From an uncultured Alphaproteobacteria bacterium (GTDB taxonomy: Bacteria > Pseudomonadota > Alphaproteobacteria > RF32 > CAG-239): DNA of 64,000 nt. The position numbers were made by a program, and so were the translations under genes. The stretch covers positions 8,279-72,278 of the forward strand of contig CALXUN010000002.1 in the NCBI GenBank assembly GCA_944391705.1, given 5' to 3'. How positions within the stretch are numbered: the stretch's first letter is position 1; every line of letters starts with the position of its first letter. This document shows, in pieces, positions 2,453 through 50,823 of the stretch. A model generated the notes under the pieces. It was not told the origin of the DNA, searched no databases, and saw nothing but the letters and a program-made list of their open reading frames with translations.

Positions 2453-4120
2453 TTAATTTTGCAATTTATTTCTTCTGGTTTTCGGGAATTTTATCATAAA
2501 TGTCGTCCCTTTGTTAACGGTACTATCGACACTTATCATACCCTGAAACTTTTCCACCAGCGACTTGACAATTGCCAAGCCCAGCCCCGTCCCCTGGTGT
2601 CGGCTGCTGCGCCCGTCCGAATAAAAAGGTTCAAAAATATGGCAAAGCTTTTCCGGCGAAATACCGACACCGGTATCGGAAATTTCAATTAATACATAAT
2701 TTTGATTTTTTGAAGTCCGGATTGAAAGCTCTCCGCCTGAAGGCATGGCTTTTAAAGCATTTTGTGCCAAATTCAAAATAATCATTTTAAAATCAGCTTC
2801 ATTACCGACAATGGTATTTTTTCCGCCGGCATTTTGCTGATGGACGACAACGCCGTTTCTTTTTGCCTCATAATCAAGTAATGACACAATTTCTGCTATA
2901 TTGATATCGGCATCAAAGCTGCCGTGTTCGCCGCCGCTGTTTCTGGCCAGTTTTAATAAGCGCTCCGGCATTTCAACGCTGTTTACAATCTGATTGTAAA
3001 TCATCAGCAAATATTTTTTTTCTTCTTTGTTATCCGGAACATCTTTGTAATAGTTATCCAAAAGGCCTTCCAAAATCATGCGGATTGAACCTAAATTGTT
3101 TTTCATTTCATGAGCAACGGAAGTTGCCAAAAAACCGAGCGAGGCAATTTTCTGCTCATGCGAAAAGCGTATATCATCGCTTAAATCACGGATAGATTCA
3201 ATAATATAAAAACCTTTTTTATCAGATGTATTCTGAATTTTTAACGGCGCGGCATTAATAGACAAAGGCCTTCCGGACATATTCTGAATAATACTGATAC
3301 CCTTTGACATACTGTTTTTAATTTCACGCAACGGACAGGTAAACATACCTTCCGAACAAGGCTTATCAAAGTTATATGCCTGATAGCATTTCCGACATTC
3401 TTCCATTCTTAATGTTTTTAACAGTTTTATATAGGCTTTGTTAGCCAGAACAACATTATAATCATGATCAATAACCCTGATCCCGTCCGGAATGGCATCA
3501 ATCAAAGACTGCAGGAAAATTTCCGTGTTTTTTATTTCGGCAATATTGTTTTCTATATTATCAATCATGGTATTAAAAGTTTTGGCCAAAGTATCAAATT
3601 CATCGAAAAAAATTTGTTTTTTGCCCAGCAAAACCCGGTGTGAAAAATCACCTTTTGCTACAAATTTGCTGGCATTGGTCAACCGGCGTATCGGGACAAT
3701 CACCCATTTATGAAGAAGCCAGCCCAAAACCACCACCAAAACCAAAGACAGCAATGAACTGATACCGATGATTTTAACACCCTCCACAAAAGCAACCGCC
3801 CGTTCATTATAATTTTGTTGCAAATCCTTATTTAATTTTTGCTCTCTGGACAGTTCTTCCTGCTTTTGGCCCAAGTCACCGCTTAAAGCGGTTTTGCTTT
3901 CTTTGGATAATTCTATTTTTGAGTTTGCCAATTCACGGCGCAGGGCAATATTTTCATACAAAAGTTCCATAACATATTGATTGCGCAAAATAATTGAGTT
4001 TTGATCCTCCTGATATTTTTTGCCGTAAATATTTAAAAATATGGTCAAAAACAGTATTGCCATAAAAATTAACAAGACAAAAACCGTATAAAAAATTTTC
4101 TTATTCAGGCTGAAATACAT
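2453..4120 (-). CDS. Membrane sensor histidine kinase with PAS domain; orphan, no adjacent response regulator
   Basis: N-terminal TM helices, coiled-coil or HAMP-like region, H-box SVAHEMKNNLGSI, HATPase G-boxes GTGLGLAIVKSLVE. No receiver-domain gene nearby. Confidence 0.85.
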   Translation of the reverse strand: MYFSLNKKIFYTVFVLLIFMAILFLTIFLNIYGKKYQEDQNSIILRNQYVMELLYENIALRRELANSKIELSKESKTALSGDLGQKQEELSREQKLNKDLQQNYNERAVAFVEGVKIIGISSLLSLVLVVVLGWLLHKWVIVPIRRLTNASKFVAKGDFSHRVLLGKKQIFFDEFDTLAKTFNTMIDNIENNIAEIKNTEIFLQSLIDAIPDGIRVIDHDYNVVLANKAYIKLLKTLRMEECRKCYQAYNFDKPCSEGMFTCPLREIKNSMSKGISIIQNMSGRPLSINAAPLKIQNTSDKKGFYIIESIRDLSDDIRFSHEQKIASLGFLATSVAHEMKNNLGSIRMILEGLLDNYYKDVPDNKEEKKYLLMIYNQIVNSVEMPERLLKLARNSGGEHGSFDADINIAEIVSLLDYEAKRNGVVVHQQNAGGKNTIVGNEADFKMIILNLAQNALKAMPSGGELSIRTSKNQNYVLIEISDTGVGISPEKLCHIFEPFYSDGRSSRHQGTGLGLAIVKSLVEKFQGMISVDSTVNKGTTFMIKFPKTRRNKLQN

Positions 4121-6374: not shown

Positions 6375-7380
6375 TATTTTCTTCCTGTTGTGCCAAAGCA
6401 TTAATGATTTTATTAAGCTGCAATTCGGCTTTAGCCGTATACCAGCCCAAAACCAGCAGGTGATTCGGTGCAAAAGTACCGTCCGGACGGCCGTTGCGTA
6501 TGATAAGAGGATTTAGCATAAATCCGTTTTCCAGCATTTTATTAAGAGATGTCCAGTTCTCATATTGTCCGGCAGCCAATATCTGCGGCTGAAAATCCTC
6601 AGCCAGCGCTTTTAAGATGACATAAAAGCCGTATAAACGTCCCTGATTATAGTAAAATACGTTATCAGCCAAACCATCCGTCCAGTCAGAACTGTATTCC
6701 CGCACCTGTTTTTCAATATCAATGGTTATGCTGCCAAGATTTTTTGCAATATTTTCCAACAGAGCCGGTAAAATTTTATTTTGGGCGATTTTAGGCATTT
6801 GCGGTTTATCATTAAAACGAAGAAGCGCTTTTCGGGCTTTCCGGTACTGAGCACCGGAAGACGGAGCCAGAGCCAAATTCTCGGTTTTTGAAAGCAGCCA
6901 GATATTACCAGGATAACTTAACAGTTCGGCGGCTTTATTTAAATCCGGCGAATCGTAACAGCGTGCCAAAACCTGCACCGTAGATTTTAAAGACCGGATA
7001 ATGCCCAGCTGATACTGCGGCATATTATCCAAAACATAACCCGGGAAAACAAACGGCAGATTCGGCGTCCACATATGATTATCAACTTCACGCGTAATCA
7101 GCCCCGCAGCCGAATCGGCAACGGCCAGTCCTTTTTCCGGCCTGGATACATTATCAATCAGCGACTTATCAATATTATGTGTTGCCCAACTGCCGACGAC
7201 ATAATATAAAACCAGAAAAGTCGGCAGAAGAATCGCTATTGATTTCCATGACTTACGGATAAATTGCAAACTTAAAACAACCCGCTCCCTCGTCAGCGGA
7301 TTTATACGCCGGAGGACTTCCAAAATTTCTTTTATCCGGCGTCTAATTGTTTCCCACTGCGTTTTTTTTGGCATCGGCAC
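6364..7380 (-). CDS. Conserved hypothetical protein with N-terminal membrane anchor
   Basis: One TM helix (IAILLPTFLVLYYVVGSW) and then a roughly 280-aa soluble domain. No motif recognised. Translationally coupled between murJ and nfu. Confidence 0.5.
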   Translation of the reverse strand: MPMPKKTQWETIRRRIKEILEVLRRINPLTRERVVLSLQFIRKSWKSIAILLPTFLVLYYVVGSWATHNIDKSLIDNVSRPEKGLAVADSAAGLITREVDNHMWTPNLPFVFPGYVLDNMPQYQLGIIRSLKSTVQVLARCYDSPDLNKAAELLSYPGNIWLLSKTENLALAPSSGAQYRKARKALLRFNDKPQMPKIAQNKILPALLENIAKNLGSITIDIEKQVREYSSDWTDGLADNVFYYNQGRLYGFYVILKALAEDFQPQILAAGQYENWTSLNKMLENGFMLNPLIIRNGRPDGTFAPNHLLVLGWYTAKAELQLNKIINALAQQEENNAH

Positions 7381-8950
7381 CTCTTTTCTTTTTCATCAGT
7401 CTATATATTTCCGCAATATCCAGAACACAAGTTATTTTAGCCAGAATAAGAAAAGTTGCAAGCCCGAAAATGCCTAATCCGCCCAATATGCATAATTTTA
7501 GGATAATTCCAAGCTCAAGCCAGCTGCCGACGCTTAAATTCAGGCCGTATTCAGCACCATATACCGCAGCTCCCATTACCAGAGAACAAATGATAATTTT
7601 AAGGATTTTATAACCCAAGGCCCCGGATATCTGCCAAAACCCGCGTTTTTTCAAGCCGTGAATATATTGAAACAACGAAACAAAAGCGGCAATCGTGGTT
7701 GCGGCAGCAATGCCGACATGACCGAACGGACGCATTAAAATCAGGTTAAAAATAAAATTAGTCAGAAAAACAACGGCGCTGTATTTAACCGGCGTTACCG
7801 TATCGCCGCGGGCAAAGAAATTCGGCATCAGGGCCTTGACGATAACATAACAGGGCAACCCGACCGAATAAGCGACAACTGCATAAGCCGTCATCTGCGT
7901 ATCTGCAGCGGTAAACCTGCCGTGTTCAAACAAAATATTAATAACCGGATGCGCTAAAACAATCATCAGTACGGCAGCCGGAAAAGAAAGAAGGGCTCCG
8001 TATTCAACCGCCTTATCCTGCGTTTGCCGGCTTTCTTCAAGGGACCCGGCTTTCAGCTGCTTGGAAAGAATCGGCAAAAGCGCAACGCTTATGGCCGCCC
8101 CGACCACGCCCAAAGGCAGCTGCTGTAAACGGTTGGCATAATAAAGCCAGGAAATGGCTCCCGTTCCGACCAAAGATACCAAAATAGTATCTACCACCAT
8201 ATTAATCTGATAAATACCGGCACCGACCACGCCCGGGGCAATCCGTTTAAACAGGGTTTTAATTTCGGGATTGCGCAAAATTTTACCAACTTTAACATAT
8301 GGTTTTATTTTAACATTTTGACGTTTCAGAAAGTATCCGAGCCAAAGAATTTCCAAAAAACCGGCAACCGTAATGCCAAGGGCAAATCCGTGTGCCGGCG
8401 TAGGGCTGAACGGGACAAAAACAAACGCTGAGGCAATCATCACCAGGTTAAGAATTACCGGTGCTGCCGCCGGTGCGGCAAACTTTTCAAAAGAATTTAA
8501 AATACCGGCCTGAAAAGAAACAACCGAAATAAACAGCAAAAACGGAAAAGTAATCCGGCACAATGAGGTTGCCAATTCCATTTTACCGGCATCATGAACA
8601 AAGCCCGGCGCCAAAACGTCGACCACATACGGCATAAACAGTTCAAACAAAACAACAAAAATTAATAAGAAAAACACCAGAATCGAAATAGCCTCAGAAG
8701 CAAAATGCATGGATTTTTTTTTGCCTTCGCTTACCAACTTTTGAGAAAAAATCGGGACAAACGCACTGGTAAACGCCCCTTCGGCAAAAAGACTTCGAAA
8801 CAAATTCGGCAGTTTGAACGATACAAAAAAAGCGTCTGAAACCATGCCGGCACCCAACATGTTAGCCAAAACCATATCCCGCAAAAAACCGGTAATCCGG
8901 CTGACAAAAGTAAAACCGCCAAAAGTAGCAATTGATTTAAATAAAGACAT
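7343..8950 (-). CDS. murJ: Lipid II flippase MurJ (MviN)
   Basis: The N-terminus SLFKSIATFGGFTFVSRITGFLRDMVLANMLGAG is the classic MurJ signature, with about 14 TM helices. Start set at the ATG at 8950. Confidence 0.9.
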   Translation of the reverse strand: MSLFKSIATFGGFTFVSRITGFLRDMVLANMLGAGMVSDAFFVSFKLPNLFRSLFAEGAFTSAFVPIFSQKLVSEGKKKSMHFASEAISILVFFLLIFVVLFELFMPYVVDVLAPGFVHDAGKMELATSLCRITFPFLLFISVVSFQAGILNSFEKFAAPAAAPVILNLVMIASAFVFVPFSPTPAHGFALGITVAGFLEILWLGYFLKRQNVKIKPYVKVGKILRNPEIKTLFKRIAPGVVGAGIYQINMVVDTILVSLVGTGAISWLYYANRLQQLPLGVVGAAISVALLPILSKQLKAGSLEESRQTQDKAVEYGALLSFPAAVLMIVLAHPVINILFEHGRFTAADTQMTAYAVVAYSVGLPCYVIVKALMPNFFARGDTVTPVKYSAVVFLTNFIFNLILMRPFGHVGIAAATTIAAFVSLFQYIHGLKKRGFWQISGALGYKILKIIICSLVMGAAVYGAEYGLNLSVGSWLELGIILKLCILGGLGIFGLATFLILAKITCVLDIAEIYRLMKKKRGADAKKNAVGNN

Positions 8951-9129
8951 TTTAAATACTTCCACAGTCGTTTAAAATAATTGTTGTTAAGTTAGCCGAA
9001 AAAGGTTATCTTTGCATTAATTATTTCATGAATATGATGATTTGTTGCATAACCTGTGCAAAAAAACTCTTGACAAAACTTTGAAAATATGCTTAAGATA
9101 GACAAAACGACCCAAGAAAGGAAAAAGAA

Positions 9130-9373: not shown

Positions 9374-9814
9374 TTATTCCCGATGATAAGGATGACCGTT
9401 CAAAATGGTCTGGATTCGGTAAATTTGTTCGGTTAAAACCACGCGCATCAACATATGCGGCAATGTGAGCTTTCCAAAAGAAAGAACCATATCCGCCCGT
9501 TTGCGCGTCGATTCCAAGTGCCCGTCAGCACCGCCGATTAAAAAACAGATTTCCGAACAACCGGAAAGCATCCAGTTTTCAATTTTTTTAGCAAGCTCAA
9601 CACTTTTTACGTTTTCACCACGTTCATCTAAAACAACCACTTTAGCACCGGAGGGAATATTGCTTAATAAAAATTCAGCTTCTTCGGCCTGAGAAGAGTT
9701 TTCTTTTTCTTTAATAATCATTTCCCAGCCGGAACGTTTGACATATTCCGAAATTAAAGCCCATTCCGGTGAATTACGGCGGCATTTTCCGATAGCAAGG
9801 ATATAAACTTTCAT
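9374..9814 (-). CDS. rlmH: 23S rRNA (pseudouridine1915-N3)-methyltransferase RlmH (SPOUT)
   Basis: About 150-aa SPOUT fold with conserved C-terminal GHPYHRE-like end and the IGGADGH motif. Confidence 0.9.
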   Translation of the reverse strand: MKVYILAIGKCRRNSPEWALISEYVKRSGWEMIIKEKENSSQAEEAEFLLSNIPSGAKVVVLDERGENVKSVELAKKIENWMLSGCSEICFLIGGADGHLESTRKRADMVLSFGKLTLPHMLMRVVLTEQIYRIQTILNGHPYHRE

Positions 9815-10115
9815 GGTATTTACCTTTCGTTTTATTTATGTTTCATATTTATATAAAAGTAAATATCTTTTTAAAAGACATGTATCAGGCTCTTCCACAT
9901 CGTCGTGCCTTTAAAATGCCTCTTACCCCTTCCCTGTCATGCCTACGCAGCCGCATTAGCGTCTGAGTACTAGGCATCCACGAATCAAAAAAACATCATC
10001 TTTACAGCTGGGTGATAAAACTTCAGTCTGCTATGATTGTGTTTCCTGCAATAGCGCCAACTTCAAAAAAATTCCGTCTGGGGATTATGTCGAAATCGGC
10101 GATGATGCAACAGAG

Positions 10116-10316
10116 TTGTGCCGCAAACATAATTTTGCATCCTACGACATATATGAACAACAAATACTTAACTATACTCTTGAAGACAATGAAGGGCGGT
10201 CAGGAAAGTGCTATATCTGGAAGAATTCTGATTGTTCCAGAGCCAGTACCGAAACCGTTGTCGGCTGTAAAAACGGTGAAGAATTTGACTACCGTGATTA
10301 CTGCGGCATCATCTGA
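10116..10316 (+). CDS. Small Cys-rich protein. The frame is open back to 9960 with no canonical start before TTG 10116. Carries a CYxCxxC module like the 636-aa protein at 48913-50823.
   Basis: Ends 5 nt before a strong bidirectional terminator at 10325-10366. The upstream in-frame peptide SVCYDCVSCNSANFKK matches the GCYKCxxxCxxGY module of the large Cys-rich protein. The overlapping 123-aa frame (10012-10383) runs through the terminator and is rejected. Confidence 0.3.
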   Translation: MCRKHNFASYDIYEQQILNYTLEDNEGRSGKCYIWKNSDCSRASTETVVGCKNGEEFDYRDYCGII

Positions 10317-10365
10317 TTTCAACCAGAAAAAAAGCCTTTCTCCAATATTGGAGAAAGGCTTTTTT

Positions 10366-10701
10366 TCATTTAACGGCTTTTAGCGCTTTCAGATGATGCT
10401 TATATATCTGCCACTGCTTGCGCTCGGCTTTTTCCTGCAAGAACGAAACACTTTCATCACAACGGCGCCAGAAATTGTCAACGGTATCTTCAAGCCATTC
10501 CTTCAGACATTTTTGATATGCCCCGGGTTTATTCTTAACCATCCGGCAGAAAATATCAACCCTTGGCTGGTCATCATACAAAACGGCCACCGCTTCCGGT
10601 AAAAGTTCGTCAAGCTCTTGCCATAGTTCTTCACCTTTTTTGAGCCTGACTTTCCGTGAAGCCATGCCGCATAAAATTAAAAAATTTTCAGTCTTCTTCA
10701 T
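10366..10701 (-). CDS. Hypothetical helical protein
   Basis: 111-aa ORF ending exactly at the bidirectional terminator. No recognisable motif. Confidence 0.45.
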   Translation of the reverse strand: MKKTENFLILCGMASRKVRLKKGEELWQELDELLPEAVAVLYDDQPRVDIFCRMVKNKPGAYQKCLKEWLEDTVDNFWRRCDESVSFLQEKAERKQWQIYKHHLKALKAVK

Positions 10702-11985: not shown

Positions 11986-12720
11986 ATGAAACATAATCTT
12001 TTTTCATTCTTATGCAGAGGGCTGCAGATGCGCCGTAACTTTTTAACGACGTGTACGATATCGGGTACACAAGGAAAAAAGTTACAAGCAGATATTGCTC
12101 TATGCGGAAGAAGCATGGTGGAGATGTTGGGGGTACTGGCAATTATTGGTGTGCTTTCGGTCGGCGCTATCTCGGGTTATTCCAAGGCGATGATGAAATA
12201 CAAACTCAACAAACAAGCCGAGCAATTAAGCTGGCTGTTTAACATTATCTATCAATACAAAGGACAGTTCGTTTTTGATAAGAAAACTTCCATGATACCT
12301 TTATTTACCAAATTAAATTTAATTGACCAAAATATGATACGTGCTGATAAAAAAGAAACAATCTACGATTCTTTCGGCAATGCCATCGCTATAGCCAACA
12401 ACAACGGCCCGAAGTTCAATGAAATTGTCTTGAATATGGGTTTACCGAAAAGCAGTTCTAACCGCTTGGCGATTTGTCAAAATGTTTTTAACGTTGCTAA
12501 AGCCCACAGTCCTTACCTGCTTTACATTCGCACCGACAACAGAGAAAGCCAAAGTGAGCCGGTAACCCCTTCCGATATGTATTACGGCGATAGCCTTTGC
12601 CAAAGTCGGGGAAATGGTGTAAATTGTATACGTTACGCAACTCTTGAAAACATTTATAATGTCTGCCAAAATTGTGATGAAATGCCAATTTGTTATTTTT
12701 CTATCACGTGGCGCATATAA
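11986..12720 (+). CDS. Prepilin-like protein (type IV pilin or pseudopilin N-terminal domain), paralog 1
   Basis: Class-III signal: ...ALCG|RSMVEMLGVLAIIGVLSVGAISGY, with Glu at +5 after the conserved Gly and a hydrophobic alpha1 helix. C-terminal Cys cluster (CQNCDEMPICY). Unusually long 40-aa leader. Terminator at 12748-12781. Confidence 0.65.
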   Translation: MKHNLFSFLCRGLQMRRNFLTTCTISGTQGKKLQADIALCGRSMVEMLGVLAIIGVLSVGAISGYSKAMMKYKLNKQAEQLSWLFNIIYQYKGQFVFDKKTSMIPLFTKLNLIDQNMIRADKKETIYDSFGNAIAIANNNGPKFNEIVLNMGLPKSSSNRLAICQNVFNVAKAHSPYLLYIRTDNRESQSEPVTPSDMYYGDSLCQSRGNGVNCIRYATLENIYNVCQNCDEMPICYFSITWRI

Positions 12721-20716: not shown

Positions 20717-21553
20717 ATGAAACCTTGGTTTTCTTTATTCTTACGCAGAATGTTGCAGATGCGCCGTAACTTTCTGACGACGTGTACAACATTAGGTACA
20801 CGAGGAGAAAAGTTGCAAGCAGATGCGACTTTTTCCGGAAGAAACGAACGACCGCAGAACCGGACAGATGCGAAGCCTTGTTTGAGCGACGTGTACAAAA
20901 TGAGTACACGAGCGAAAAGAAGGCAAACAGATGTTCGGTTATCCGGTCGTTCTATGGTGGAGATGTTGGGAGTTTTAGCAATTATTGGAGTTTTAAGTGT
21001 TGGCGTTATCTCGGGCTATTCCAAAGCCATGATGAAGTATAAACTCAACCGACAAACAGAACAAATCGGTAGTATTCTAGATTATGTTCTGATTAATTCT
21101 GATAAGTTTAATCACGATACTTCCATAGCATTTATTTCATTATTATATAAATTGAATGCCATTCCGGTGGAAATGATAAGGGAAGATTGGATCTACGGCT
21201 ATGCTTATGACATATTCGGCAATAAAGTATATCTGAATGACAATAATGATGGAAATAATATTTATTATAGTTTATCCGTTTCCATCAGTAAATACTCGCG
21301 CGAAATTTGTATGAATTTATACCAAATGGCCAAGCTCCGTTCTGCCAATTTATGGCAAACCGTGTTTAATAAAGACACCCAAAGTTCTTCCATGGAACAC
21401 ACCAACAGAGTATGGGGCGATTCTTATTGCAGCAAATCAGTTACTTGCCTCAAAGATTTAAGCTTAACACAAATGGACGAACTTTGTTCAGCATGTGACG
21501 ATTCTCAAACCTATTGTAGATTTTATATTTTATGGGGTCGGATCAAACCTTAA
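20717..21553 (+). CDS. Prepilin-like protein, paralog 2, with a duplicated leader module
   Basis: Identical mature N-terminus G|RSMVEMLGVLAIIGVLSVGVISGYSKAMMKYKLN. The 77-aa leader contains a tandem duplication of the leader module. Divergent C-terminal domain with a Cys cluster (CSACDDSQTYC). Confidence 0.6.
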   Translation: MKPWFSLFLRRMLQMRRNFLTTCTTLGTRGEKLQADATFSGRNERPQNRTDAKPCLSDVYKMSTRAKRRQTDVRLSGRSMVEMLGVLAIIGVLSVGVISGYSKAMMKYKLNRQTEQIGSILDYVLINSDKFNHDTSIAFISLLYKLNAIPVEMIREDWIYGYAYDIFGNKVYLNDNNDGNNIYYSLSVSISKYSREICMNLYQMAKLRSANLWQTVFNKDTQSSSMEHTNRVWGDSYCSKSVTCLKDLSLTQMDELCSACDDSQTYCRFYILWGRIKP

Positions 21554-47846: not shown

Positions 47847-48443
47847 ATGCAACGGATACATCAGCTTTTACATCAAATGTATGACTTAATGTTAAGACTT
47901 TCGGCACACAACAAAGCCATGTTCTTTTTATTTTTGGTATCTTTTGCCGAAAGTTCGTTTTTCCCGATTCCCCCGGATGTCATGATTATCCCGATGGTTT
48001 TAGCCACACCAAATAAAGCTTGGCGGATTGCAGGTTTGGCTACGGTTGCCAGCGTTTTAGGCGGATATTTCGGCTATATCATCGGCGCCGGATTTTTTGA
48101 TTTGATTGCCAAACCGATTTTGGAAATGTATAACGCACTCGAACAATTCAAAGAATTTGAAGACTACTACCACAAATTCGGCGCGTGGATTGTTTTTGCT
48201 GCCGGCTTAACCCCGTTTCCCTATAAAATCATCACTATTGCCAGCGGTGTTGTTCATTTGGATTTGTTTGTCTTTACCGTTGCCTCAATTTTGGCGCGCG
48301 GCATGCGGTTTTTCTTTGTTGCCTGGCTCTTGAAAAAATACGGCGAACCGATGAAAATCTTTATTGAAAAGAATTTGGGCTGGCTTTCGGTTTTGTTTTT
48401 AATTCTCTTAATCGGTAGTTTTATGCTGATTAAATGGTTGTAA
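47847..48443 (+). CDS. YqaA/DedA-family (SNARE-associated domain) membrane protein
   Basis: FFPIPPDVMIIPMVLA motif and 4-5 TM helices. Confidence 0.7.
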   Translation: MQRIHQLLHQMYDLMLRLSAHNKAMFFLFLVSFAESSFFPIPPDVMIIPMVLATPNKAWRIAGLATVASVLGGYFGYIIGAGFFDLIAKPILEMYNALEQFKEFEDYYHKFGAWIVFAAGLTPFPYKIITIASGVVHLDLFVFTVASILARGMRFFFVAWLLKKYGEPMKIFIEKNLGWLSVLFLILLIGSFMLIKWL

Positions 48444-48876
48444 GAAAACTCAGCCTATAAAAATCATATAAATATCGCCAGGTAGCCCAGGATTCTGTGC
48501 AGCCACGGACCTACAGTTTGACTTTTGCTCTTAGGGCATGACGAACTGAGAGGCCGTCGCACATGTTGTCACCCCTATGAGGACGCATAGCGTCCGAATA
48601 CCAGGGGTCCACAAAAACTAAAGCAATAACATTTGATTTGTGGATGCCTGATACTCACTCGCTTACGCTTGTTCTTAAGCCATGACAGAAAGGGAGAAGA
48701 GATACTCGTAGCATAAAGCGGTGTTGCAATAGATATCCCCCAGTAAACTGGGGGTTCTATAACAGCTACAAACCTTACGGTTTGACCAAGCTCGTTGGCG
48801 TGGAGCGGTGTTGTTCCAACACCTTGGCATTCAGCCCCGAGTAAACTCGGGGTTTTCTGTAAGGCAACTAAATAAA

Positions 48877-48915
48877 CCAACCCCCGCATTGGGATGCGGG
48901 GGTTGGTTTGATTTA
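48877..48915. terminator. Strong bidirectional terminator
   Basis: AACCAACCCCCGCATTGGGATGCGGGGGTTGGTTT. Confidence 0.8.
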
Positions 48916-50823
48916 TTGTTTTTTAGTTGGTGCTTTGGTTACGTAGTTGTGATTACTGTTATAATCATAACATAGCTCAAAGCATCCATCTGTAACCATA
49001 ACATATGGAACAGAATTGGGATTTGGATTTTTCTTACCGGGTGTCCAGTGGTTATCCTCAGGCTTGGTGAAACATTCATATTCAGCGGTATGGTATTGTC
49101 CATCCGGGCACAATTGACATTTGTAACAAGTGTCATTACCTGCATATCCAACTGTACTTTCATAACCATAATATGGTGAATTATAGCATTCCGAACGGTT
49201 TGTCGTAATACCAGGTCCGGTCGGACAGGTTTTGGCTTTACATTTGTAACAACTTACATCACCTGAGCCGTTTTCATTAGCTTCAATAATGCTTGTATCC
49301 AATTCCCATCCGCCACTTTGGCCGCATTCTGAAACATCTTTAACAAAGCCGTCTATGCAAATACATTTATAACACTGTCTATCACCCCGATAAGAATCAC
49401 CCAATGTTGAACTCATATTCACGCCACAGAACCTTAGCACTGAATTCATACCAAATTCGTCTGTTGCGCATGACTTAGTTTCACATTGATAACACCCTGC
49501 CTCATCGGTATCCGTACCAAGCTTCCAGCCCTTTGTTCCGGTTTTCCCGCAATCAGCTGCCGTTTTTGCATAACCATCCGTACATTGAAGCGTTACGCAT
49601 TTATAACAACCCTTAACTGTAGCGTGTTCTTGAAGCGTTTGTCCGACAAAACAGGCTTGGAGCCGATTTGCAGAATAACCGGCAGGACAATCTTTAACAC
49701 ATCGATAACATCCTGTATCGCCGGCATAAGCCGTCGAATGATATTCCGCCTTATAATCACTACGGCAAATACCTAAATCTCCGGCAGTATATCCTGTAGG
49801 ACAGGATTTGGCTGCACAAGCACCGCAAACAATTACTTTATTGCCGCTGACAACCTTTTTAGTGTATATATTCCATCCGGCGCTCCCTGAATCACCGCAA
49901 TCTTCAACTTTTTGATACTTGGAAGAAGAACCAGCCGGACACACATCATCGTCGGTTTCTTCTTGACCTGGACAATACATATAACTTGAATCAAACGGGC
50001 ATTTAACCCCGGTTGTTCCGTCATCACATTTTGTTGCCTTGACATAACCAAGGGTTGCACAATCCGTAACCGTTGTTTGCGTCACATTGCACCAATATGC
50101 TTCCAGATTAATCTGTCCTTCTTCGCTGCAGGTTTCTGCACTGCAAAGATAGCAATTATCATGACCGTTATAAACCTGTTCGACCAGCGTTGTACAACCA
50201 TCTGTCCGGGAGCTGCATTCTTCGGTCGAATAGCTGTCATCGCAAATACAATAAGGATACCAGCGGCTGCCGTCCGGTTCCTCGCAATAATCCGTACCGC
50301 TTGGTTCTTTTAAACCTCTCTCATCGCAGCTATACGGATAAACAGTTCGGGAACAAGCACATTCCTCATATCTGATAGATCCATCAGCAGGGCTCCTACA
50401 GGAATCTCCGCTGCCGGATGCATTAGTATAGTCAGCACAACTTTCATACGGATAACGAGCCGGATTGCAAATGGTTTCAGAACCGGCACAGCCGCACACC
50501 GAATTAAAAGTTCCGGTACAAATATATTTACCATTTTCCAAATCCAAAACATTATCGCTGTTACAGCTGCAACGATAATATGTTTTGTCATTATAAATAC
50601 AAGTTTGCTCCTGATAACCTTCCGGACATGGCGTTGTCCGATCATATCCCTGACATCCCGTACCAAGCCAGCTGCTGTTGTCAATACAACCGTCACCATT
50701 TAAAACGCCGGGCAAAAAGCAGACTTTGGCTTCTGCATCTGCTGCCGCGATTAGTATAACCAACAGTAAAAATTTCGCCAATGTCCGCATACTCTTAAGC
50801 CCTTCAGATAACTTGCCGTTCAT
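48913..50823 (-). CDS. Secreted, extremely Cys-rich repeat protein, 636 aa
   Basis: Signal peptide MRTLAKFLLLVILIAAADAEA. About 7 tandem modules of 35-45 aa of the form C-[PT]-x-G-[YF]...G..GCY[KRQ]C... (GCYRCVKDCPAGY, GCYKCVTLQCTDGY, GCYQCETKSCATDEF, QCYKCICIDGF, SCYKCKAKTCPTGPG, TCYKCQLCPDGQY). Own promoter and an AGGAAAG RBS. Confidence 0.7.
   Translation of the reverse strand: MNGKLSEGLKSMRTLAKFLLLVILIAAADAEAKVCFLPGVLNGDGCIDNSSWLGTGCQGYDRTTPCPEGYQEQTCIYNDKTYYRCSCNSDNVLDLENGKYICTGTFNSVCGCAGSETICNPARYPYESCADYTNASGSGDSCRSPADGSIRYEECACSRTVYPYSCDERGLKEPSGTDYCEEPDGSRWYPYCICDDSYSTEECSSRTDGCTTLVEQVYNGHDNCYLCSAETCSEEGQINLEAYWCNVTQTTVTDCATLGYVKATKCDDGTTGVKCPFDSSYMYCPGQEETDDDVCPAGSSSKYQKVEDCGDSGSAGWNIYTKKVVSGNKVIVCGACAAKSCPTGYTAGDLGICRSDYKAEYHSTAYAGDTGCYRCVKDCPAGYSANRLQACFVGQTLQEHATVKGCYKCVTLQCTDGYAKTAADCGKTGTKGWKLGTDTDEAGCYQCETKSCATDEFGMNSVLRFCGVNMSSTLGDSYRGDRQCYKCICIDGFVKDVSECGQSGGWELDTSIIEANENGSGDVSCYKCKAKTCPTGPGITTNRSECYNSPYYGYESTVGYAGNDTCYKCQLCPDGQYHTAEYECFTKPEDNHWTPGKKNPNPNSVPYVMVTDGCFELCYDYNSNHNYVTKAPTKKQ

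What the first reader, a model, noticed from the sequence alone, without database searches (positions are those of the whole stretch)
9960..10316. Small ORF carrying one CYxCxxC module of the big Cys-rich protein, with no canonical start codon
The frame ending at 10316, 5 nt before a strong bidirectional terminator, is open back to 9960. Upstream of the first canonical start (TTG at 10116) it encodes SVCYDCVSCNSANFKK. That peptide matches the GCYKCVTLQCTDGY-type module of the 636-aa protein. Downstream it encodes further Cys-spaced segments (GKCYIWKNSDC, VVGCKNGEEFDYRDYCG). It is therefore either a degenerate single-module paralog (pseudogene or fragment), or a small gene that uses a non-canonical start.
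Basis: seen in the sequence. Interest (0 to 1): 0.5.

Follow-up and report, generated by a model that had tools for sequence, protein, structure and literature searches.

The report
Truncated relic of a Cys-rich secreted-protein gene
The start-less open frame is the decaying tail end of a gene for a cysteine-rich secreted protein whose front two-thirds are missing, so it is an ordinary pseudogene and not a small gene with an unusual start codon.

Summary
The frame 9960-10316 (+) is open as described, and its only canonical in-frame start is TTG at 10116. It is not a chance ORF. An exhaustive search of 1.84 billion proteins found one intact relative, P0042. P0042 is 323 aa, has a signal peptide and is Cys-rich. 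Its residues 219-311 align with frame residues 10-105 at 35% identity (library E 1.2e-6; z about 20 against shuffles). P0042 belongs to the family of the window's 636-aa protein.

The frame lacks the roughly 218 N-terminal residues of the parent, including the signal peptide. It has no start codon with a ribosome-binding site. Homology begins exactly where a 65-nt hairpin repeat element ends (9924-9989). That element varies from 1 to 5 copies between strains and changes the upstream reading frame.

Six strain haplotypes carry 7 nonsynonymous, 2 independent nonsense and 2 synonymous changes in 330 nt. In rlmH plus murJ the counts are 7 nonsynonymous and 38 synonymous (Fisher p = 6e-5).

Verdict: a 5'-truncated pseudogene under no detectable constraint. 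Interest is low.

The parts
9987..10316 (+). Gene relic (pseudogene). It is the 3'-terminal ~110 codons of a P0042-like Cys-rich secreted-protein gene: last CYxC-type module, C-terminal tail and native stop TGA.
   Evidence: tblastn aligns P0042 residues 219-311 to window 9987-10274 at 35% identity. phmmer E is 1.2e-6 against 1.84 billion proteins. BLASTP E is 2e-15. Smith-Waterman score is 160 against shuffles of 37 +/- 6, with 0 of 2000 shuffles as good, and only this frame of six scores. Polymorphism is 7 nonsynonymous, 2 nonsense and 2 synonymous. Codon-usage score is 0.163, the best of six frames and similar to the 636-aa gene at 0.147.
9924..9989 (+). Hairpin (palindromic) repeat element that abuts the relic. 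It supplies the first ~9 codons of the open frame, the in-frame ATG at 9939 and the TAG at 9957-9959 that bounds the frame.
   Evidence: nhmmer with a profile of the units gives E = 3e-18. The fold is -15.9 kcal/mol, z = -2.5. Six of 13 pairs keep pairing through changes on both sides across copies. Copy number at this site is 1 to 5 in different strains.
10116..10316 (+). The mechanical 66-aa ORF from the only canonical in-frame start (TTG). It is not a gene.
   Evidence: Listed. There is no AGGA/GGAG/GAGG upstream; the sequence is ...gcaacagagTTG. Six nonsynonymous and 2 nonsense polymorphisms and 0 synonymous fall within it.
10012..10383 (+). Shadow ORF of 123 aa in the other frame. It runs through the terminator into the convergent gene, and a gene caller called this frame in one strain.
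   Evidence: Listed. The 116-aa call in L006/L059 ends 18 nt inside the 111-aa gene, as this frame does. It shows no similarity to P0042, with a Smith-Waterman score of 28.
10326..10367 (.). Bidirectional intrinsic terminator shared by the relic and the convergent 111-aa gene (10366-10701, minus strand).
   Evidence: The inverted repeat has 21-nt arms that are 100% complementary and include an A7 and a T7 run. The stem is unchanged in every strain read in full; one strain (L002) has one T fewer in the T-run.
48913..50823 (-). Intact 636-aa Cys-rich secreted protein. It belongs to the same family as the relic's parent and carries seven CYxC motifs.
   Evidence: Translation shows a signal-peptide-like N-terminus. 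Forty homologs were found. P0042 aligns with it at E = 2e-11, and the alignment runs through the module that corresponds to the relic's CYDCVSC.
48632..48698 (-). Second copy of the hairpin repeat element, just 3' of the 636-aa gene, inside a mosaic of other hairpins (about 48440-48900).
   Evidence: nhmmer E = 4.6e-15, with a weak partial copy at 48560-48614. The sequence was read.

Best explanation
Window 9987-10316 is a non-functional, 5'-truncated relic of a gene for a cysteine-rich, signal-peptide-bearing, modular protein. The family is uncharacterised and occurs in uncultured gut Alphaproteobacteria. It includes the window's own 636-aa protein; the relic's closest intact relative is P0042.

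Shown: the relic keeps the last CYxC-type module, the C-terminal tail, the native stop codon and the terminator. The terminator lies between the relic and the convergent 111-aa gene.

Shown: everything upstream is gone, about 218 codons covering the signal peptide, the conserved N-terminal domain and the GW-containing modules. A small hairpin repeat element now sits at the break. It varies in tandem copy number between strains. This is why the open frame runs a few codons past the homology and why it has no start codon.

Shown: the relic accumulates nonsynonymous and nonsense substitutions at about the neutral ratio.

Inferred: the order of events (deletion or rearrangement, then or together with element insertion), and the absence of expression.

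The site lies divergent from rlmH. In related species the same position holds entirely different secreted or pilin-like genes, which fits gene turnover at a variable locus.
For: 1. Homology to part of an intact gene. P0042 (323 aa) is the only non-trivial hit in 1.84 billion representatives, with E = 1.2e-6, aligning query residues 2-98 of the 110-aa query (frame residues 10-106) to P0042 219-312. BLASTP gives 35% identity over 97 aa, E = 2e-15, and GRSGKCY[IA]WKN is conserved. The empirical z is about 20, with 0 of 2000 shuffles as good, in this frame only.

2. P0042 is a member of the 636-aa family. It matches P0037 at 5e-30, P0036 at 2e-25, the L010 356-aa protein at 1e-11 and P0002 (the 636-aa protein) at 9e-10. 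The alignments place P0042's CQDCVTC on CYxC modules.

3. Missing parts. There is no ATG or GTG in frame. No Shine-Dalgarno motif precedes TTG 10116 or any near-cognate codon. The translation has no hydrophobic N-terminus. tblastn finds no trace of P0042 residues 1-218 at this locus.

4. The break coincides with a repeat element at 9924-9989. Its copy number (1, 2, 3 or 5) and the upstream frame differ between strains. One strain gets a fortuitous 158-aa ATG fusion, P0001.

5. Relaxed constraint. Across 6 haplotypes the relic has 7 nonsynonymous, 2 independent nonsense (R85*, E99*) and 2 synonymous changes in 330 nt. One of the synonymous changes shares a codon with a nonsynonymous one. rlmH has 1 nonsynonymous and 5 synonymous; murJ has 6 and 33. 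Fisher p = 6e-5, and the neutral expectation is 80% nonsynonymous.

6. Gene callers skipped this frame in all but one of the distinct strain contigs examined, the P0001 strain.

7. Related species carry other genes at this position next to rlmH: a pilin-like gene in L009 and L014, a 356-aa Cys-rich gene in L010, and a 481-aa gene in L011-L013 and L015.
Against: No expression data exist, so transcription or translation cannot be excluded. The frame is still intact in 4 of 6 haplotypes and keeps gene-like codon usage, so the decay is recent. In strains L002 and L006 the abutting hairpin unit provides an in-frame ATG (MPSKRKAFWIRHPRIKK...), so an ORF with a canonical start does exist in some strains. 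Only one intact relative of the C-terminal region is known, so the pattern of conserved cysteines cannot be judged. The polymorphism sample is small (11 sites).
Confidence: 0.86

Rival explanations
1. It is a functional small cytoplasmic or secreted protein. Translation would start at TTG 10116 (66 aa), at a non-canonical codon further upstream, or at the ATG that the hairpin element provides in some strains.
For: The open frame is 118 codons long, its codon usage is the best of six frames, and a terminator follows the stop. Strains L002 and L006 have an in-frame ATG in the last hairpin unit, and P0001 was called as a 158-aa protein.
Against: Two independent nonsense alleles occur in 6 haplotypes. 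Inside the TTG ORF there are 8 nonsynonymous or nonsense changes and 0 synonymous. No Shine-Dalgarno motif precedes any candidate start. The N-terminus differs by strain because it lies in a copy-number-variable repeat. A Cys-rich extracytoplasmic domain has no export signal. No homolog of such a short form exists in 1.84 billion representatives.
Confidence: 0.05
2. It is a silent donor cassette. On this reading a promoterless, 5'-truncated copy is kept as a template for segmental gene conversion into an expressed Cys-rich surface-protein gene, as with Anaplasma msp2 pseudogenes or Neisseria pilS (comparison from my own knowledge).
For: It is a truncated, promoterless copy of a member of a diversifying modular family whose C-terminal module arrays vary between homologs. 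It sits at a variable locus flanked by repeat elements that also occur next to the intact 636-aa gene.
Against: blastn finds no DNA-level similarity between the relic and any other part of the window, including the 636-aa gene. No protein with a similar C-terminal region is known from this species, although it is sampled in more than 20 metagenome contigs; the only close hit is P0001. Nonsense alleles and a neutral substitution pattern are seen. Only one copy was found.
Confidence: 0.03
3. The region works as RNA rather than as protein, for example as an sRNA or a long structured 3' or 5' region that ends at the terminator. The open frame would then be incidental.
For: A strong terminator lies at the end, and there is no translation start.
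Against: No Rfam family matches above noise; all hits are the terminator hairpin. Substitution density is the highest of the loci compared: 11 of 330 sites, against 6 of 441 in rlmH and 0 of 336 in the 111-aa gene. Protein-level homology to P0042 in one frame only explains the open frame.
Confidence: 0.03
4. It is a chance open frame in intergenic DNA, and its Cys spacing mimics the big protein by coincidence.
For: Direct similarity to the 636-aa protein is at chance level. A second long frame is open on the same strand.
Against: The similarity to P0042 has z about 20, is frame-specific and has a library-wide E of 1.2e-6.
Confidence: 0.01

Closest known systems
P0042, a 323-aa Cys-rich protein with a signal peptide, from metagenome contigs of another gut bacterium (L049-L052)
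   Same: Residues 219-311 align with the relic at 35% identity. The shared features are LG[DN]...C.DCV.CN, IG.D, the C..H spacing and GRSGKCY.WKN. Both end 12-18 residues after the aligned block.
   Different: P0042 is intact. It has a start codon, a signal peptide, an N-terminal domain (C..LGYS....C.HYLYCPFD.SYK.CV) and two GW-containing modules. It lies in a different genomic context (secE-nusG ... radC).
The window's 636-aa Cys-rich protein (48913-50823, minus strand) and its 40 homologs P0002-P0041; no Pfam or NCBIfam model covers them
   Same: It belongs to the same family as P0042, as shown by the N-terminal domain and the modules. The relic's SVCYDCVSC sits where the family's Y.G[DN]..CYKC module start sits.
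   Different: No direct similarity to the relic is significant. The relic's tail after the module (GRSGKCYIWKN...) has no counterpart in the 636-aa protein.
Bacterial pseudogenes formed by 5' truncation (general class; from established knowledge)
   Same: The relic is homologous to part of an intact gene, has lost its start and N-terminus, shows a neutral substitution pattern and has nonsense alleles segregating between strains.
   Different: Nothing essential differs. The parent family is undescribed, and the break is occupied by a copy-number-variable hairpin repeat.
REP/BIME-type or MITE-type palindromic intergenic repeats (for the element at 9924-9989; comparison from my own knowledge)
   Same: It is a short imperfect palindrome with conserved outer arms and a variable, compensated inner stem. 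It is intergenic, dispersed and clustered in mosaics with other hairpins, and its copy number varies between strains.
   Different: The sequence is unrelated to described REPs. No RAYT or transposase was looked for or found. Here the units repeat in direct tandem.

Membership tests
Cys-rich secreted modular protein family (636-aa protein, P0002-P0042) | Significant sequence similarity to at least one family member | tested here: met
   The match to P0042 has a library-wide E of 1.2e-6, z about 20 and BLASTP E of 2e-15. P0042 is tied to the family at 1e-9 to 5e-30.
Cys-rich secreted modular protein family (636-aa protein, P0002-P0042) | N-terminal signal peptide | tested here: not met
   The 118-codon frame contains no hydrophobic segment. 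The upstream DNA is a repeat element followed by the rlmH promoter region.
Cys-rich secreted modular protein family (636-aa protein, P0002-P0042) | Conserved N-terminal domain (C..LGY....C.HYL.CPFD.SY..C) | tested here: not met
   tblastn with P0042 finds only residues 219-311 at this locus.
Cys-rich secreted modular protein family (636-aa protein, P0002-P0042) | CYxC-type module recognisable by a module profile | tested here: inconclusive
   The module HMM gives 4.3 and 7.2 bits with shuffle p of 0.02 and 0.005, ranking fourth of 787 open frames, third behind the 636-aa gene itself. hhalign gives P = 0.001 over 10 columns at the correct position. Support comes only transitively through P0042.
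Pseudogene (5'-truncated gene relic) | Homologous to only part of an intact gene, with start and N-terminal part missing | tested here: met
Pseudogene (5'-truncated gene relic) | Relaxed selective constraint (nonsynonymous to synonymous ratio near neutral, disabling alleles) | tested here: met
   The relic has 9 nonsynonymous or nonsense changes to 2 synonymous, against 7 to 38 in rlmH plus murJ (Fisher p = 6e-5). Two independent stops occur.
Pseudogene (5'-truncated gene relic) | No functional product expressed | not testable with these tools
   This needs metatranscriptome, Ribo-seq or proteome data.
Small protein gene with non-canonical start | ORF and N-terminus conserved among strains, under purifying selection, with a ribosome-binding site | tested here: not met
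   The upstream frame changes with repeat copy number. Stops and a neutral pattern are seen. No Shine-Dalgarno motif is present.
Silent donor cassettes for antigenic variation (Anaplasma msp2 pseudogenes, Neisseria pilS) | Expressed paralog sharing nucleotide-level conserved blocks with the cassette | tested here: not met
   No blastn match occurs elsewhere in the 64-kb window. No close protein is found in the databases. The rest of the genome was not available.
REP/BIME/MITE-like palindromic repeats (element 9924-9989) | Imperfect palindrome, multi-copy, intergenic, dispersed | tested here: met
   It is found at two sites in the window, several in the strain contigs and one in L034. The stem shows compensatory changes.
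REP/BIME/MITE-like palindromic repeats (element 9924-9989) | Cognate transposase (RAYT or IS) or target-site duplications | not tested
   I did not search for these.

The most novel reading that the evidence does not exclude
The relic may not be dead DNA. It could be a reservoir segment, a promoterless 3' cassette of a diversifying surface-protein family flanked by hairpin repeat elements that also flank the intact 636-aa gene. Such a cassette could be recombined into expressed paralogs, or be re-activated when a hairpin unit that carries an in-frame ATG lands next to it, as in strains L002 and L006.
Probability: 0.04. Interest if true: 0.55.

Novelty: new member of a known kind. Interest (0 to 1): 0.15.

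Why it matters
The practical value is for annotation. The frame should be marked as a pseudogene. The database entry P0001 (158 aa) and the alternative-frame call in L006/L059 are artefacts. The case also shows that a motif-level resemblance between Cys-rich sequences can sit at chance level while the family assignment is still correct, and that one intermediate sequence was needed to show it. The surroundings are somewhat more interesting than the relic: an undescribed Cys-rich secreted protein family, and a hairpin repeat element that varies between strains of an uncultured gut alphaproteobacterium.

Tried and rejected
**Curated libraries**
- Pfam and NCBIfam scans of the frame, P0042, the 636-aa protein and the L010 356-aa protein gave nothing above threshold. 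DUF7243 and DUF7808 scored about 15 bits against a cut-off of 27.
- Rfam with permissive thresholds on the window locus and on the longest strain variant returned only junk hits on the terminator hairpin.

**Comparisons with other proteins**
- BLASTP of the frame against the pilin-like 244-aa neighbour and against the L010 356-aa protein, which occupies the same position in the closest species, showed no similarity.
- The word-indexed homolog search with the frame and with the frame plus P0042 C-terminus alignment returned only P0001, the same locus in another strain.
- P0043-P0045 from the exhaustive search are long repeat proteins that match short low-complexity stretches. P0045, the one inspected, aligns its repeated 'VKDPSHLTKGEKEQV...' unit with no cysteine conservation. 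I rejected them as relatives.

**Collection scans**
- The genome-contig scan with the 111-aa neighbour found no relative.
- The metagenome-contig scan for the terminator sequence gave 0 matches.

**Other checks**
- A literature search for the lineage found nothing relevant to these proteins.
- A fixed-gap pattern search for the hairpin failed because I miscounted the spacer. The variable-gap search and the nhmmer search replaced it.

Full report
**Observation**

The frame from 9960 to 10316 on the plus strand is open. The only canonical in-frame start is TTG at 10116, which gives a 66-aa ORF. A perfect inverted repeat with 21-nt arms, including an A7 and a T7 run, lies at 10326-10367. It begins about 10 nt after the stop and is shared with a convergent 111-aa gene at 10366-10701. 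The flanking genes are rlmH (9374-9814, minus strand; Pfam SPOUT_MTase at 6e-43) and, beyond the 111-aa gene, mutY. The 636-aa Cys-rich protein is real but lies on the minus strand of 48913-50823.

**Is the module similarity above chance?**

Tested directly, it is not.
- BLASTP of the frame against the 636-aa protein gives a best E of 0.13.
- The Smith-Waterman score is 46, against 41 +/- 6 for composition-preserving shuffles; 454 of 2000 shuffles do as well.
- I built an HMM from 56 CYxC modules taken from the 636-aa protein and its homologs. It scores the frame at 4.3 bits overall and 7.2 bits for the best domain. That ranks fourth of 787 open frames of at least 40 codons in the window, third behind the 636-aa gene itself. 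110 and 26 of 5000 shuffles reach those scores.
- Profile-profile comparison places SVCYDCV-SCN on the module start, but over only 10 columns (P = 0.001, probability 20%).
- The bare motif CYxC occurs in five other open frames of the window.

**What the frame is**

The word-indexed search found only P0001, a 158-aa entry from another strain of the same species. The exhaustive HMMER search of 1.84 billion representatives found one further real relative, P0042 (E = 1.2e-6). P0042 has 323 residues. It starts with a signal peptide (MNKIFPLVLCGLVPAFSAFALTC) and is Cys-rich. Its residues 219-311 align with frame residues 10-105 at 35% identity (BLASTP E = 2e-15). Conserved blocks include C.DCV.CN and GRSGKCY[IA]WKN. 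The Smith-Waterman score is 160 against 37 +/- 6 for shuffles, with 0 of 2000 as good, and only this one of the six frames scores. The conserved W shows that CYIW is not a decayed CYxC.

P0042 is a clear member of the 636-aa family.
- Its N-terminal 200-250 residues match P0035-P0038 at 1e-21 to 5e-30.
- It matches the 356-aa Cys-rich protein of L010 at 1e-11 and the 636-aa protein at 9e-10.
- In these alignments P0042's 'YLGNTLATCQDCVTC' falls on CYxC modules.

No Pfam or NCBIfam model covers this family.

**What is missing**

The relic corresponds only to the last third of the parent. tblastn with P0042 finds nothing of residues 1-218 at the locus. The translated frame has no hydrophobic segment. 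None of the candidate starts (TTG 10116, CTG 10008, ATC 9984, ATG 9939) is preceded by AGGA, GGAG or GAGG. Half of 50 training genes have such a motif. Codon usage in the frame scores 0.163 per codon, the best of six frames and close to the 636-aa gene at 0.147. This fits a recently inactivated coding sequence.

**The 5' boundary**

Contigs of the same species from other metagenomes show that the spacer between the 111-aa gene and rlmH, which contains the relic, ranges from 549 to 905 nt. Most of the difference comes from the copy number of a hairpin element of about 65 nt. The rest is a 118-nt composite insert carried once in L002 and twice in L006. The element consists of a pyrimidine-rich leader, GTCATGCCT, a variable inner hairpin, AGTAyyAGGCAT and CCACGAATCAAA.
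- Copy numbers: the window, L003 and L007 have 1 copy. L004, L005 and L057 have 2. L001 and L060-L062 have 3. L002 and L006 have 5.
- Window copy: it lies at 9924-9989 (nhmmer E = 3e-18) and folds as a hairpin. Across copies, 6 of 13 pairs keep pairing through changes on both sides.
- Junction: homology to P0042 begins at 9987, exactly at the right end of the element, and this junction is identical in all strains.
- Effect on the frame: the first 9 or so codons of the open frame, the in-frame ATG at 9939 and the TAG at 9957 all belong to the element. The upstream reading frame therefore depends on which unit abuts the relic.
- L057: the arrangement fuses an upstream ATG in frame, which produced the database 'protein' P0001.
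- L002 and L006: the last unit gives MPSKRKAFWIRHPRIKK....
- L001, L004 and L005: the last unit introduces a stop.

**Selection**

Across 6 haplotypes, the 330 nt of the relic carry 7 nonsynonymous changes, 2 synonymous changes and 2 independent nonsense changes. One of the synonymous changes shares a codon with a nonsynonymous change. The nonsense changes are AGA to TGA at codon 85 in L060 and L061, and GAA to TAA at codon 99 in L002.

In the same contigs, rlmH has 1 nonsynonymous and 5 synonymous changes. murJ has 6 and 33. The 111-aa gene has none. The contrast of 9:2 against 7:38 gives Fisher p = 6e-5. The neutral expectation for this sequence is 80% nonsynonymous. Eight of the nine damaging changes lie inside the TTG-started 66-aa ORF.

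Gene callers skipped the frame in all contigs but one. In L006/L059 they called the shadow frame that corresponds to 10012-10383 instead.

**Context across species**

The best GTDB representatives are uncultured gut Alphaproteobacteria, with RlmH identity of 70-84%; one is Candidatus Scatocola. None has the relic or the 111-aa gene next to rlmH. The position divergent from rlmH holds other genes:
- a pilin-like gene in L009 and L014;
- a 356-aa Cys-rich secreted-protein gene in L010;
- a 481-aa gene in L011-L013 and L015.

This is a locus of rapid turnover of secreted or surface proteins. P0042 itself sits in an unrelated context, secE-nusG ... radC.

**Rivals**

- A functional small protein is disfavoured by the nonsense alleles, the neutral substitution pattern, the strain-dependent N-terminus, and the missing ribosome-binding site and export signal.
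- A silent donor cassette is disfavoured. blastn finds no nucleotide-level paralogy in the window. No similar C-terminal region exists in any called protein of this well-sampled species.
- An RNA function has no support: Rfam gives only terminator noise, and the region has the highest substitution density of the loci compared.
- A chance ORF is refuted by the P0042 match.

**Verdict**

This is a 5'-truncated pseudogene of an undescribed Cys-rich secreted protein family, with the break marked by a hairpin repeat element. It is a real feature but an ordinary one. Interest is low. The parent family and the hairpin element are the more noteworthy by-products.

Noticed in passing
window 9924-9989 (+) and 48440-48900 (copy at 48632-48698, minus strand); L001-L008 and L053-L063 upstream of rlmH; L002 1375-1437; L034 4572-4621: A dispersed hairpin repeat element of about 65 nt. 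It has conserved outer arms (GTCATGCCT / AGGCAT), an inner stem that varies with compensatory changes, and a CCACGAATCAAA tail. It is tandemly amplified 1 to 5 times at the rlmH site in different strains and sits in mosaics with other hairpins. In the window both copies lie next to Cys-rich genes: 5' of the relic and 3' of the 636-aa gene. It has no Rfam match.
   Followed up: partly
L009 3030-3830, L010 2594-3664, L011 2444-3889, L014 3193-3825 (all divergent from rlmH at 4001): In related species the position divergent from rlmH holds unrelated secreted or surface genes: pilin-like, 356-aa Cys-rich, or a 481-aa protein. It appears to be a hotspot of gene turnover.
   Followed up: partly
window 48913-50823 (-); P0002-P0042: The 636-aa protein belongs to an undescribed family, with no Pfam or NCBIfam hit. 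The N-terminal 40-45% of the 636-aa protein is the part most homologs share. The C-terminal arrays of roughly 35-40-aa CYxC modules (Y.G[DN]..CYKC..C..GY) are highly variable, and the number of CYxC motifs ranges from 0 to 10 between homologs.
   Followed up: partly
window 11986-12720 (+) and 20717-21553 (+): These are pilin-like proteins with a prepilin-type N-terminus (GRSMVEMLGVLAIIGVLS) that scores below the Pfam and TIGRFAM cut-offs, and a Cys-containing C-terminal part. The 244-aa gene is present in the window and L003 but absent between fabF and mutY in L001 and L005. In L002 a different gene lies upstream of mutY. The contig that carries P0042 has a similar gene.
   Followed up: partly
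window 10366-10701 (-): The 111-aa gene has no Pfam or NCBIfam hit and no relative in 185,579 GTDB representative genomes. It shows zero polymorphism in 17 strain copies, although the adjacent relic is the most polymorphic segment.
   Followed up: partly
L006 3605-5209 compared with window 7343-8965: MurJ of strain L006 is only 75% identical in protein sequence to the window's MurJ, while rlmH, mutY and the 111-aa gene are identical. This suggests a recombination import from a different lineage.
   Followed up: no
P0001 (L057 2770-3246; L063 4001-4477); L006 1834-2184: Two database gene calls at this locus are artefacts. P0001 is an upstream ATG fused in frame through the repeat element to the relic. 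The 116-aa call in L006/L059 is the shadow frame that runs through the terminator.
   Followed up: yes
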